From Pelagibacteraceae bacterium AG-426-E17 (GTDB lineage: Bacteria; Pseudomonadota; Alphaproteobacteria; Pelagibacterales; Pelagibacteraceae): a DNA stretch of 64,000 nucleotides. The notes under the pieces are model-generated. The model was given only the letters and a program-made list of their open reading frames with translations. It was not told the DNA's origin and searched no databases. Made by a program: the position numbers and the translations under genes. This document shows positions 14,167 to 15,742 of this stretch, piece by piece. The stretch covers positions 3,503 to 67,502 of the forward strand of contig QCNP01000003.1 of the NCBI GenBank assembly GCA_003210095.1, given 5' to 3'. The stretch's first letter is position 1; each line of letters opens with the position of its first letter.

Positions 14167-15120
14167 TCATATTTTAATATTTTTTAAAGCATTATTTTTG
14201 AAAATATTAGCTTCTCTTATATATCTTCTAACCATCTGACTTGTTTTGTGACCAGTCATTGCCATTATACTACGTTCATCAGCACCAGACTCTGCAGCGA
14301 CAGTTGCAAAACCTGATCTTAAACTATGACCTGCAAAATTTTTATTTTCTATACCTGCTAAATTTAAATATTCTTTCATTAATAAAACTACTGATTGATC
14401 AGTTAATCTTTTTTCAGTTAATGATAAACCTTTTGAAAATCTTCTAAAAATTGGTCCAGATTTAATTTTAGAAATTTCTAACCATTTTTTAAGATTAACA
14501 ATTGGACAATAATTTTCATTAGTGAAGTAGGGTAGTCCTTTAATCATCCCTTCACCAAATTGATCAGTTTTTGATCTTTTAATAGTGATTTTGAGACCCT
14601 CAGGTACAAATTCTAAATCTTCATGATCAATTGAAATTAGCTCAGTTCGTCTAAAACCTCCTCCAAAGCCCACTAAGATAATTGATTTGTCTCTATACTT
14701 CTTTATGTCTTCAATTTTTTGTTCATTTATTGTATTAATTATTGATTTTAAATGATTGATTAATATAGGTTTTTTACCTTTCTGAATGCTTCCTTTTACC
14801 CTTTTTATTCCCATTAAATTTTCAACAATAATTGGGTGTTTTGTATCTAAATAATGTCCTTTAAGTTTATGAACCATGCATATAGACACTAATCTTCTCC
14901 TTAAAGTACTGATTTTTGAATTTTTAGAAAGATGGGTTAGGTATAATGAGACTATTTTTGGCTCTGATGGCAGGGAATTTAAACCATGTTTAGCGCAAAA
15001 AGCTCCAAAATCTTTAAAGTCTGATTTATATGCTCTTAAAGTGTTATTTGCTTTTGAGCTTTTGAGATTATTTAGTGTTGCCTCGTAAAGCAATTTTAGG
15101 TCTGTTGTAAGTTCATTCAT
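14167..15120 (-). CDS. Cre-like tyrosine site-specific recombinase
   Basis: Intact catalytic set R (GFRRTEL), K (RSKTDQ), HxxR (HSLR), H (GHKT), Y (RRYI); SAM-like N-terminus (NTLRAYKSD); no obvious arm-binding domain. Confidence 0.92.
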   Translation of the reverse strand: MNELTTDLKLLYEATLNNLKSSKANNTLRAYKSDFKDFGAFCAKHGLNSLPSEPKIVSLYLTHLSKNSKISTLRRRLVSICMVHKLKGHYLDTKHPIIVENLMGIKRVKGSIQKGKKPILINHLKSIINTINEQKIEDIKKYRDKSIILVGFGGGFRRTELISIDHEDLEFVPEGLKITIKRSKTDQFGEGMIKGLPYFTNENYCPIVNLKKWLEISKIKSGPIFRRFSKGLSLTEKRLTDQSVVLLMKEYLNLAGIENKNFAGHSLRSGFATVAAESGADERSIMAMTGHKTSQMVRRYIREANIFKNNALKNIKI

Positions 15121-15122
15121 AT

Positions 15123-15159
15123 TATTACTATTGATAACAATTAATTATCAATACTAATA
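15123..15159. repeat. lox/dif-like inverted repeat, candidate recombination site
   Basis: TATTACTATTGATAA-CAATTAA-TTATCAATACTAATA: 15-bp arms with 14/15 pairs complementary, 7-nt asymmetric spacer, starting 3 nt upstream of the recombinase ATG. Confidence 0.65.
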
Positions 15160-15285
15160 TAGCATCAATTTATTTAAGTCAACAAGATAATTTAAAAAAA
15201 GTTATCAACATAATTCACAAAGCTTTAAATAAAACAATTAAAAAGTGATACATTAGACTCTTATAATTTGATATTAATTATTTAA

Positions 15286-15468
15286 TTAAGGGGCAACCCT
15301 TAACTGGCCGACTGGGGAAAGGCCGAGAGGACCAAGCCCAGGGGGCAGAAAGTCTTACGGAGTAGCGCTAAAATCGTAGGGCGGAAGGCATGGCGGTAGC
15401 GCATACAACGACGTGCCAAAACTACTGTTCTTTGCACCGTAAAAAGTGCAGAGAAACAGGGGTTTTTT
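15286..15468 (+). ncRNA. Putative structured non-coding RNA, family not identified
   Basis: About 59% GC over 15291-15420 (77/130 by hand count) in a very AT-rich genome; GNRA hairpin at the 5' end, two apparent pseudoknots, 3' hairpin plus T-tract; no plausible protein. Confidence 0.75.
15425..15468 (+). terminator. Intrinsic terminator-like hairpin ending the putative ncRNA
   Basis: CTGTT-CTTTGCAC-CGTAAAAA-GTGCAGAG-A-AACAG followed by GGGTTTTTT. Confidence 0.5.
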
Positions 15469-15472
15469 CTTC

Positions 15473-15742
15473 ATGAAAGGCACTAAATTTCAAATCAAAG
15501 TCTGGAAATATCTTAAAAAGATCCCTAAAGGAACAGTCAGAACATATAAAGATGTTGCAAAAGCTATAAATAAGCCAAAAGCAGCGCGGGCTGTAGCAAA
15601 TGCCTGCGCTAAAAACCCATATGCTCCAAAAATACCTTGTCATAGAGTAATTAGGTCTGATGGAGGCCTTGGTGGCTATTCTGGCAGAGGTGGGGCAAAA
15701 AAAAAAGTAAGCTTATTGAGGTCTGAAAAAGTTCAAATTTAA
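15473..15742 (+). CDS. ogt: Methylated-DNA--protein-cysteine methyltransferase, minimal single-domain form (89 aa)
   Basis: FQIKVW..L..IPKG...TY, PCHRVI active site. ATG 15473 lies after the terminator hairpin, so it is preferred to the track start. Confidence 0.9.
   Translation: MKGTKFQIKVWKYLKKIPKGTVRTYKDVAKAINKPKAARAVANACAKNPYAPKIPCHRVIRSDGGLGGYSGRGGAKKKVSLLRSEKVQI

What the first reader, a model, noticed from the sequence alone, without database searches (positions are those of the whole stretch)
15286..15468. Unannotated ~180-nt GC-rich, double-pseudoknotted RNA between the recombinase and ogt
Seen: about 59% GC, comparable to the tRNAs here. It has a 5' hairpin TTAAGGG-GCAA-CCCTTAA (GNRA loop). 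A GGCC/GGCC stem (15306-09/15321-24) has a loop CTGGG (15312-16) that can pair with CCCAG (15337-41), forming an H-type pseudoknot. GCGCTA (15365-70)/TAGCGC (15397-402) crosses GGCATG (15387-92)/CGTGCC (15412-17), forming a second pseudoknot. AGTAG (15361-65)/CTACT (15422-26) could close a domain. A terminator-like hairpin ends it, and TATAAT lies at 15262-67 upstream. I could not match it to tRNA, SRP, RNase P, tmRNA or 6S. From memory and unverified, abundant marine metatranscriptome small RNAs have been mapped beside a SAR11 O6-methylguanine methyltransferase gene, so it may belong to a catalogued motif of unknown function (e.g. IMES-type). A streamlined genome keeping such an RNA implies selection.
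Basis: partly seen in the sequence, partly recalled or inferred. Interest (0 to 1): 0.8.

Follow-up and report, generated by a model that had tools for sequence, protein, structure and literature searches.

The report
Known marine small RNA IMES-2
The GC-rich element is a complete gene for IMES-2, a very abundant ocean small RNA of SAR11 bacteria that has been catalogued since 2009 and still has no known function, so it is real but not new.

Summary
Window 15279-15419 (+) matches Rfam RF02035 (IMES-2) over the whole model at 158 bits (cut-off 54.7, E 1e-43).

The unit is a self-contained RNA gene:
- a conserved promoter (box AAAGTGATAC, 17 nt, then the extended -10 TGATATTAAT)
- a 5' end near 15284
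- four covarying hairpins
- a covarying intrinsic terminator, with a 3' end near 15466

Marine metatranscriptomes hold it at 100 to 1000 times the depth of the flanking genes.

The loops of hairpins 3 and 4 (15365-70 and 15397-402) form a kissing helix. Its four central pairs are kept in 60 of 60 distinct sequences, through at least five compensatory sequence types. The other pseudoknot is an ordinary nested helix, because the GGCC/GGCC stem fails. AGUAG/CUACU and the TATAAT at 15262 are not conserved.

The RNA is confined to Pelagibacteraceae and present in about half of the genomes. It sits before ogt in only one genus, so it is not an ogt switch. Its function remains unknown. I favour a compact trans-acting particle.

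The parts
15242..15251 (+). Conserved upstream promoter box AAAGTGATAC (consensus CAAC-N3-AAAGTGATAC). It lies a fixed 17 nt (16 in a few) before the TG of the extended -10.
   Evidence: It is conserved in genera g1, g8, g9 and g10, and as GAGATAC in g5 and g12, although the flanking genes differ. The combination GTGATAC-N15-18-TGNTA occurs in an intergenic setting only here in the 1.15-Mb genome.
15269..15278 (+). Extended -10 element TGATATTAAT (TGnTAnnnT in relatives).
   Evidence: It is conserved in position and form across loci. It places +1 near 15283-15285, where the RNA contigs begin.
15279..15419 (+). Match to Rfam RF02035 IMES-2, model positions 1-141 of 141.
   Evidence: 158 bits against a gathering score of 54.7, E 1.6e-41 to 1.3e-43, not truncated. 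It is the only copy in the genome.
15284..15466 (+). Inferred mature transcript of about 183 nt.
   Evidence: Metatranscriptome contigs start at 15284 in two runs. A run made with poly(A) tailing shows A-tails added after 15466, inside the U-tract. Depth is 0 upstream of 15269.
15286..15303 (+). P1 hairpin, 7 bp, GCAA (GNRA) loop.
   Evidence: 100% of cells paired, and 4 of 7 pairs have compensatory changes.
15304..15348 (+). P2 long hairpin.
   Evidence: Helix 2 is 94% paired with compensatory changes in 9 of 11 pairs. P2b is 89.5% paired with compensatory changes in 3 of 4 pairs.
15352..15382 (+). P3 hairpin (8 bp) with the 15-nt loop L3, GAGUAGCGCUAAAAU.
   Evidence: All 8 pairs show compensatory changes (helices 4 and 5).
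15365..15370 (+). L3 half of the kissing helix, GCGCUA.
   Evidence: It pairs with 15397-15402. The four central pairs are kept in 60 of 60 distinct sequences, with 20 compensatory cells, a number reached by 0 of 500 shuffles. The sequence types are listed.
15387..15417 (+). P4 hairpin (9 positions, with one conserved G.A mismatch) and the 13-nt loop L4, GUAGCGCAUACAA.
   Evidence: 88.7% paired, and 6 of 9 pairs have compensatory changes.
15397..15402 (+). L4 half of the kissing helix, UAGCGC.
   Evidence: Loops from the same lineage pair at -7.7 to -12 kcal/mol, better than variant loops crossed with canonical ones.
15425..15468 (+). P5 intrinsic terminator: a 13-bp stem with one bulge (15425-15459), then GGG and U6 (15463-15468).
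   Evidence: 95.7% paired, compensatory changes in 6 pairs, matched by 0 of 500 shuffles. The tool's simple terminator scan missed it. The poly(A)-tailed 3' end is at 15466. Homology to relatives runs through it.
15473..15742 (+). Neighbour: a short ogt/MGMT gene (89 aa, PCHR active site). Its ATG is 5 nt after the U-tract. It is probably transcribed by terminator read-through.
   Evidence: PF01035, E 1e-33. RNA contigs span 15416-15524 and 15421-15482 at about 1% of the IMES-2 depth, while the upstream flank has depth 0. The ATG lies 48-66 nt after the core in 54 of 55 g1 loci where ogt could be located.
14167..15120 (-). Neighbour: a divergently oriented tyrosine recombinase.
   Evidence: PF00589 and PF02899. 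It flanks IMES-2 in genus g1 only.

Best explanation
This is the single-copy gene for IMES-2 (Rfam RF02035), an accessory small RNA confined to Pelagibacteraceae (SAR11).

Shown here: it is a self-contained transcription unit. It has a family-specific promoter (AAAGTGATAC box, 17 nt, extended -10), a transcript of about 183 nt (15284-15466) and its own covarying intrinsic terminator. The RNA is a row of hairpins: P1 with a GCAA loop, the long P2 with a GAGA loop, P3, P4 and the terminator P5. The large loops of P3 and P4 pair with each other in a 5-6-bp kissing helix that is kept through compensatory changes. The RNA accumulates to levels 100-1000 times those of the neighbouring mRNAs.

Inferred: it acts in trans as a compact, stable RNA particle. 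My split of the odds:
- about 40%: it binds or sequesters a protein
- about 20-25%: it assembles with copies of itself through the L3-L4 contact
- about 10%: it base-pairs with mRNAs

It is not a switch for ogt. In the genus of this window, ogt has no room for a promoter of its own. It most likely gets a low, constitutive supply of transcripts from the roughly 1% of polymerases that read through the IMES-2 terminator.
For: Identity:
- Full-length Rfam hit at 158 bits against a cut-off of 54.7.
- One copy in the genome.

Structure:
- 92% of 2406 cells paired, 33 of 46 pairs with compensatory changes, 0 of 500 shuffles as high.
- Terminator.
- Kissing helix: the four central pairs are 60/60 paired. 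Besides canonical GCGC/GCGC there are the compensated types GUAC/GUAC, GCAC/GUGC, GAAC/GUUC and UCGCU/AGCGA, plus the partly compensated GUGC/GCAA.
- Several variant types are complementary to each other but not identical and not palindromic. What is conserved is therefore L3-L4 pairing, not a shared motif.

Stand-alone gene:
- In genera g8, g9 and g10 it lies between mnmA and a convergent membrane-protein gene.
- In g5 it lies between a nuclease-like gene and a convergent SRAP/YedK-like gene.
- Every locus examined has a hairpin after the core, and most are followed by a U-tract.
- ogt follows it only in genus g1, and one g1 locus has an ORF inserted between them.
- ogt is present in all 22 genomes tested, including 17 that lack IMES-2. 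There it usually abuts an upstream gene.

Expression:
- Depth is 500 to 53,000 over 15284-15420, 0 upstream, and about 7-30 on ogt.
- In one run IMES-2 depth exceeds that of the matching 5S rRNA (about 630) by more than tenfold.
- RNA runs of only about 2 million letters still hold it.

Distribution:
- 182 of 401 Pelagibacterales genomes, in 6 of 13 genera.
- 116 of 151 genomes of genus g8.
- None of 397 other alphaproteobacterial genomes.
Against: - No function, partner or target has been shown here, or (from my own knowledge) anywhere else. The trans-acting particle is an inference from anatomy and abundance.
- Contig depth is a poor measure of expression. It sums related strains, and some runs were rRNA-depleted.
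- The 5' end rests on contig starts, not on 5'-end mapping.
- The tight, conserved spacing of the ogt ATG behind the U-tract in more than 50 species could mean more than genome compaction.
- Depth falls 10-100-fold over the terminator (15433-73). This may be 3' trimming or only strain divergence. I could not tell which.
- About half of the genomes in this genus lack the RNA, so it is dispensable.
Confidence: 0.85

Rival explanations
1. It is a cis-acting leader (a riboswitch or attenuator) of ogt. The four-hairpin domain would sense a ligand or a damage signal and set how often the terminator just before the ogt start codon is read through.
For: - The ogt ATG lies 5 nt after the U-tract, with no room for a promoter. 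This spacing (48-66 nt after the core) holds in 54 of 55 g1 loci where ogt could be located.
- RNA contigs bridge the terminator into ogt.
- The fold is as elaborate as an aptamer.
Against: - In five other genera the same RNA, with the same promoter box and a 3' hairpin of its own, has no same-strand downstream gene at all.
- ogt is found in all 22 genomes tested and is expressed from other contexts where IMES-2 is absent.
- One g1 locus has an ORF inserted between the RNA and ogt.
- No conserved antiterminator was found. The partner of the terminator's 5' arm in nascent-RNA folds differs between lineages, and the only recurrent complementarity (GUAG/CUACU) does not covary.
- The terminated RNA is 100-1000 times more abundant than ogt RNA.
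Confidence: 0.06
2. It is a self-assembling RNA. The L3-L4 complementarity acts between molecules, hand in hand as in phage phi29 pRNA, and gives closed dimers, rings or chains of this very abundant RNA.
For: - The two loops of one molecule are complementary to each other and covary.
- P3 and P4 are adjacent hairpins of similar length joined by only 4-6 nt. A coaxial 6-bp kissing complex within one molecule would be strained (inference from geometry, not computed).
- The canonical L3 is also an 8-nt palindrome, UAGCGCUA.
- Very high copy number.
Against: - Covariation cannot tell cis from trans.
- The large loops (15 and 13 nt) leave slack for an intramolecular contact.
- Intramolecular 6-bp loop-loop contacts exist in known RNAs (the lysine riboswitch, from my own knowledge).
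- No oligomer has been observed.
Confidence: 0.22
3. It is a trans-acting base-pairing regulatory sRNA, or a CsrB-like sponge for an RNA-binding global regulator.
For: - It has its own promoter and terminator.
- It has conserved single-stranded stretches: J2/3 CAGAAA, the flanks of L3 and L4, and J3/4 GGAA.
Against: - tblastn with the E. coli proteins finds no Hfq and no CsrA in the 99%-complete genome.
- There are only one or two GGA motifs, and none lies in a conserved hairpin loop.
- An elaborate, globular, covarying fold is unusual for seed-pairing sRNAs (own knowledge).
Confidence: 0.1
4. It is a passenger or functional RNA of a mobile cassette array served by the adjacent tyrosine recombinase.
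For: - In genus g1 it lies 150-500 nt from a divergent recombinase.
- Small membrane-protein ORFs lie on either side of it in different genomes, and one complete genome has the recombinase, the small ORF and ogt without IMES-2.
- Its distribution is patchy.
Against: - In five other genera it is not next to the recombinase.
- No repeats flank the unit.
- No copy was found on phage records or viral contigs.
- Its presence looks clade-structured, not scattered.
Confidence: 0.05

Closest known systems
IMES-2 RNA motif (Rfam RF02035). From my own knowledge it was described by Weinberg, Perreault, Meyer and Breaker, Nature 2009, 462:656, and overlaps the putative sRNA groups of Shi, Tyson and DeLong, Nature 2009, 459:266. 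It was later noted in the SAR11 isolate HIMB114. Neither paper could be read here.
   Same: - Full-length match to the model
- The same four hairpins and the same invariant loop sequences
- Marine SAR11 host
- Exceptional abundance in ocean metatranscriptomes
- No consistent downstream gene
   Different: Nothing in kind: this is a member.

Added here:
- the L3-L4 kissing helix, with compensatory evidence (I could not check whether the original description drew it)
- the conserved promoter box
- the terminator as a fifth conserved hairpin
- the distribution: about half of Pelagibacterales genomes, 6 of 13 genera, and nothing outside the family
   Same: Two loops of the same molecule are complementary to each other and covary. 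In pRNA that complementarity proved to be intermolecular (own knowledge).
   Different: - IMES-2 is chromosomal and is on no phage record or viral contig.
- It has a different fold and no link to a packaging motor.
- Pairing between molecules is untested for IMES-2.
Lysine riboswitch L2-L3 and purine riboswitch L2-L3 loop-loop contacts
   Same: A loop-loop helix between two neighbouring hairpins that locks a compact fold.
   Different: - Those sit in multi-way junctions closed by a P1 helix and precede regulated genes.
- IMES-2 is an open row of hairpins with no closing helix and no consistent downstream gene.
IMES-1 RNA motif (Rfam RF02034) of SAR86
   Same: Found in the same 2009 surveys. 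It is also a very abundant stand-alone marine RNA of unknown function. Earlier notes of this scan suggest that its loops pair with other copies of the RNA.
   Different: - Unrelated sequence and fold, and a different host clade.
- Its loops are self-complementary palindromes according to those unchecked notes, whereas IMES-2 conserves complementarity between two different loops.

Membership tests
IMES-2 (Rfam RF02035) | Covariance-model score above the curated gathering score over the whole model | tested here: met
   158 bits against 54.7, model positions 1-141 of 141, E 1e-43.
IMES-2 (Rfam RF02035) | Four consecutive hairpins P1-P4 supported by covariation | tested here: met
   92% of cells paired, 33 of 46 pairs with compensatory changes, 0 of 500 shuffles as high.
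IMES-2 (Rfam RF02035) | Conserved loop and junction sequences: GCAA, GAGA, GCAGAAA, AGUAGCGCUAAAA and GGUAGCGCAUACAACGAC | tested here: met
   All are present and aligned to upper-case consensus positions.
IMES-2 (Rfam RF02035) | Marine alphaproteobacterial (SAR11) host | tested here: met
   182 of 401 genomes of the window's order carry it. None of 397 other genomes of the class do.
IMES-2 (Rfam RF02035) | Very high abundance in marine metatranscriptomes | tested here: met
   Depth up to 53,000 against 0-30 on the flanks and about 630 on the matching 5S rRNA in the same run. Contig depth is only a rough measure.
Riboswitch or transcription attenuator of ogt | Consistently precedes the same gene class across lineages | tested here: not met
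   ogt follows it only in genus g1. Five other genera have a convergent gene downstream or none.
Riboswitch or transcription attenuator of ogt | A conserved alternative pairing that competes with the terminator | tested here: not met
   Nascent-RNA folds give no consistent partner. GUAG/CUACU does not covary.
Riboswitch or transcription attenuator of ogt | Ligand-dependent structural change | not testable with these tools
   This needs in-line probing or transcription assays.
   This needs native gels, mass photometry or cryo-EM with complementation mutants.
   No match in 50,697 phage records. No canonical copy in IMG/VR.
CsrB/RsmZ-type protein sponge | Many GGA motifs in hairpin loops, and a CsrA/RsmA gene in the genome | tested here: not met
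   There are one or two GGA motifs, none in a conserved loop. tblastn with E. coli CsrA at E<=1 gives no hit.
   GGCC/GGCC is 57% paired, equal to shuffles. CUGGG/CCCAG is nested in P2.

The most novel reading that the evidence does not exclude
IMES-2 is a self-assembling RNA. The covarying L3-L4 complementarity would work between molecules, hand in hand as in phi29 pRNA. One of the most abundant non-ribosomal RNAs of surface-ocean SAR11 cells would then exist as closed dimers, rings or filaments, an RNA-only particle in the style of the recently solved ROOL, GOLLD and OLE assemblies. Its function would be tied to that assembly and not to any neighbouring gene.
Probability: 0.2. Interest if true: 0.75.

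Novelty: already known. Interest (0 to 1): 0.27.

Why it matters
As a finding it is a rediscovery. The RNA is in Rfam, and its SAR11 origin and abundance are on record.

It is still worth noting because IMES-2 is among the most abundant transcripts of the most abundant bacteria in the ocean, and nobody knows what it does.

- a kissing helix between loops L3 and L4, backed by compensatory changes, which gives precise mutants for folding or assembly tests
- a family-specific promoter box that points to a dedicated regulator
- clear evidence that the RNA is not a switch for ogt
- a presence/absence pattern (about half of the genomes) that is suitable for phylogenetic profiling to find a protein partner

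Tried and rejected
Rejected: 57% paired, equal to shuffles.
- **Domain-closing helix AGUAG/CUACU.** Rejected: no compensatory change, and one-sided changes break it in 12 of 41 sequences.
- **TATAAT at 15262-67 as the -10.** Rejected because it is not conserved.
- **The conserved promoter box as a regulon motif.** Only this site in the genome has the box plus the spaced extended -10 in an intergenic setting.
- **Phage origin.** No hit in INPHARED phages with sensitive blastn. No canonical copy in IMG/VR.
- **CsrA sponge or Hfq-dependent sRNA.** No CsrA or Hfq by tblastn. The queries were the E. coli proteins only.
- **Antiterminator search.** Folding nascent transcripts gave no consistent partner.
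- **Literature.** The library holds nothing relevant on IMES-2. Weinberg 2009 could not be fetched by DOI, PMC id or PubMed id. Shi 2009 was not attempted. Statements about both papers are therefore from memory.
- **Left undone.** I did not scan the metagenome or genome contigs collections for more loop variants, because a pattern loose enough to admit variants would return mostly chance or canonical hits.
- **Cis versus trans.** I could not decide whether the kissing helix forms within one molecule or between molecules.

Full report
**Identity.** A scan of the whole window against Rfam gives one non-tRNA hit. Window 15279-15419 on the + strand matches RF02035, the IMES-2 RNA motif, at 158 bits (gathering score 54.7, E 1.6e-41) over model positions 1-141 of 141. 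A more permissive scan of 15100-15600 gives the same hit and nothing else of note. The region folds much better than shuffled sequence (z -4.7). It is 53-55% GC in a 27% GC window. It is the only copy in the 1.15-Mb, 99%-complete genome. Its own criterion for losing novelty is met.

**The observation, claim by claim.** All the listed words sit at the stated coordinates. I collected 74 loci from related genomes and then 37 more. From these I aligned 53 and later 60 distinct cores.
- The Rfam helices are strongly supported: 92% of 2406 cells paired, 33 of 46 pairs with changes on both sides, and no shuffle or slid register comes close. This confirms the 5' hairpin with its GCAA loop, CUGGG/CCCAG and GGCAUG/CGUGCC.
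- CUGGG/CCCAG is a nested part of the long P2 hairpin. The GGCC/GGCC stem that would make it a pseudoknot is paired in 57% of cells, exactly the shuffle level, and two of its four pairs are unpaired in most sequences. The 3' GGCC instead pairs within the apical stem P2b, which covaries. The first pseudoknot is rejected.
- AGUAG/CUACU has no compensatory change and is no better than shuffles. Changes on one side simply break it.

**The second pseudoknot is real.** GCGCUA (15365-70) lies in the loop of P3 and UAGCGC (15397-402) in the loop of P4, so the pairing is a kissing-loop contact.
- In most lineages both loops carry GCGC, which says nothing either way. Rarer lineages do change:

| Lineage | L3 | L4 |
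|---|---|---|
| one g8 clade | AGUACU | AGUACU |
| genera g5 and g12 | AGCACU | AGUGCU |
| one g8 genome | AGAACU | AGUUCU |
| two g1 genomes | UCGCU | AGCGA |
| one g1 genome | GUGCUA | UAGCAA |

- On 60 distinct sequences the four central pairs are standard pairs in 60 of 60. Twenty cells carry a change on both sides, against 3.6 ± 1.6 in shuffles (0 of 500 reach the observed number), and slid registers fall to 4-51% paired (the first version is).
- Loops from the same lineage give duplexes of -7.7 to -12 kcal/mol. Variant L3 loops paired with canonical L4 loops give only -3.3 to -5.6.
- Several variant types are complementary but neither identical nor palindromic. Selection therefore acts on L3-L4 pairing and not on a shared protein-binding motif or on L3-L3 self-pairing.
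- Covariation cannot say whether the contact forms within one molecule or between molecules.

**The transcription unit.**
- Upstream, relatives share a box AAAGTGATAC (15242-51). A fixed 17 nt (16 in a few) later comes TGnTAnnnT, an extended -10 (15269-78). Both are kept even in genera where the flanking genes are different.
It is missing from a relative whose RNA is 99.5% identical.
- The box plus the spaced -10 occurs in an intergenic setting only here in the genome.
- Downstream, homology runs through a hairpin (15425-59) followed by GGG and U6. This hairpin covaries: 95.7% paired, 6 pairs with compensatory changes, 0 of 500 shuffles. Other genera have different hairpins in the same place, most of them followed by a U-tract.
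- Twenty public marine sequencing runs hold the sequence, 14 of them labelled RNA, including libraries of about 2 million letters.
- Laid on the window, contig depth is 0 upstream of 15269, hundreds to 53,000 over 15284-15420, lower over the terminator, and about 7-30 on ogt. Contigs begin at 15284, and poly(A)-tailed library molecules end at 15466.
- In the same small run, 5S rRNA matching this genome peaks near 630. Contig depth is a rough measure and sums related strains, but the contrast with the flanks is very large.

**Not a switch for ogt.**
- The downstream gene is an 89-residue PF01035 protein with the PCHR active site. The upstream gene is a tyrosine recombinase.
- In the window's genus the ogt ATG lies 48-66 nt after the Rfam core in 54 of 55 loci where ogt could be located. 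One locus has a small ORF inserted between them.
- In genera g8, g9 and g10 the RNA lies between mnmA and a convergent membrane-protein gene. In g5 it lies between a nuclease-like gene and a convergent SRAP/YedK-like gene. I infer from memory of the genome size that g5 includes the HIMB114 genome, because one contig is 1,237,371 bp. No ogt lies within 1.4 kb in any of these loci.
- ogt is present in all 22 genomes tested, including 17 complete genomes that lack IMES-2. There it mostly abuts an upstream gene.
- Folding nascent transcripts gives no consistent antiterminator.
- In this genus, contigs bridging 15416-15524 in a run whose upstream flank has zero depth show that some transcripts read through the terminator. 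With no room for a promoter, ogt most likely lives on that leak. This is an inference.

**Distribution.**
- IMES-2 is found in 182 of 401 sampled genomes of the order, in 6 of 13 genera, and in 91 of 215 high-quality genomes. Many single-contig genomes of the window's own genus lack it.
- It is in 116 of 151 genomes of genus g8.
- It is in none of 397 other alphaproteobacterial genomes from about 300 genera.
- It is on no phage record and, in canonical form, on no IMG/VR contig.
- It is thus an accessory, family-restricted RNA. It is single-copy in all but one genome, a fragmented assembly with two copies.

**How it most likely works.**
- Shown: a strong dedicated promoter, an efficient terminator, a compact fold with two GNRA loops and a loop-loop helix, very high steady-state level, and no dedicated neighbouring gene.
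- Inferred: a stable trans-acting RNA particle.
- I found no CsrA or Hfq homologue and few GGA motifs. The best-conserved loop bases are used internally. A classical base-pairing sRNA or a Csr sponge therefore seems less likely than a protein-binding RNP core or decoy.
- The most interesting open alternative is that L3 and L4 pair between molecules, as the two loops of phi29 pRNA do (own knowledge), giving dimers or rings. P3 and P4 are adjacent, of similar length, and joined by only 4-6 nt, which makes a coaxial kissing complex within one molecule awkward. The loops are large, however, and intramolecular precedents exist. I put this alternative at about 20%.

**Comparison with what is known.** This is a member of IMES-2 and every defining feature I could test is met. 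From memory, the family was described by Weinberg et al. (Nature 2009), overlaps the putative sRNAs of Shi et al. (Nature 2009), and was later noted in HIMB114. Attempts to fetch Weinberg 2009 failed, I did not attempt Shi 2009, and the paper library holds nothing relevant on IMES-2. I could not check whether the loop-loop pairing was drawn in the original description. Earlier follow-ups in this scan on other genomes reached the same identification. I treated them as leads and re-derived each point here.

**Verdict.** A real feature of an already known kind. Interest is low to moderate. The residual value lies in the kissing helix, the promoter box and the evidence that separates the RNA from ogt.

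Noticed in passing
window 15131-15151: An imperfect palindrome, TTGATAA-CAATTAA-TTATCAA, lies just upstream of the recombinase start. The surrounding ATTATTACTATTGATAACAATTAATTATCA is nearly identical in other genomes, including one of another genus (L075, L092). It looks like a lox/dif-type site for the adjacent tyrosine recombinase.
   Followed up: partly
L006, L013, L017, L018, L075 (relatives of window 15121-15470): Small membrane-protein ORFs (58-77 aa, starting MGSIDGEIP or MSSIDGEIP) lie between the recombinase and IMES-2 in some genomes. In one genome the ORF lies between IMES-2 and ogt, and in another it is present without IMES-2. A 159-aa ORF fills the same gap in others. This points to a short variable array next to the recombinase.
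   Followed up: partly
L076-L091 (IMES-2-less genomes of the same genus): In these genomes ogt directly abuts or overlaps the end of an upstream same-strand ORF, read as ...FELYMNLKGTKFQ. I did not identify that ORF. ogt seems never to have its own promoter in this genus.
   Followed up: partly
L066-L073 (genus g5; one contig of 1,237,371 bp): The divergent IMES-2 form (62-80 bits) faces a convergent SRAP/YedK-like gene (MCGRY...), which is again a DNA-damage gene next to the RNA, as ogt is in g1. This may be coincidence.
   Followed up: no
L068 (G156) and L074/L057 (G302): One complete 1.5-Mb genome carries a 128-nt variant (70 bits). Its P4 region is degenerate and lacks a partner for its intact palindromic L3, so it may be a decaying copy. 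One fragmented assembly has two different copies on two small contigs, which could be a mixed bin or a true duplication.
   Followed up: no
window 15298-15299 and 15413-15416: In run X4, sequencing adapters abut the RNA at these positions. That implies many library inserts of about 116-119 nt. They could come from a processed core lacking P1's 5' arm and the terminator, or from structure-driven fragmentation or reverse-transcription stops. Depth also falls 10-100-fold over the terminator in all runs.
   Followed up: no
window 15242-15251 and relatives: The promoter box AAAGTGATAC is more conserved than a normal -35 element. It lies too far (21 nt) from the -10 hexamer to serve as one. It may be the binding site of a dedicated activator.
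   Followed up: partly
L056, L059, L133-L135 (genus g8): In these g8 loci the hairpin after the core is followed by AUGUGGUUCUCUUCC and not by a U-tract. Termination or 3'-end formation may therefore differ in that genus.
   Followed up: no
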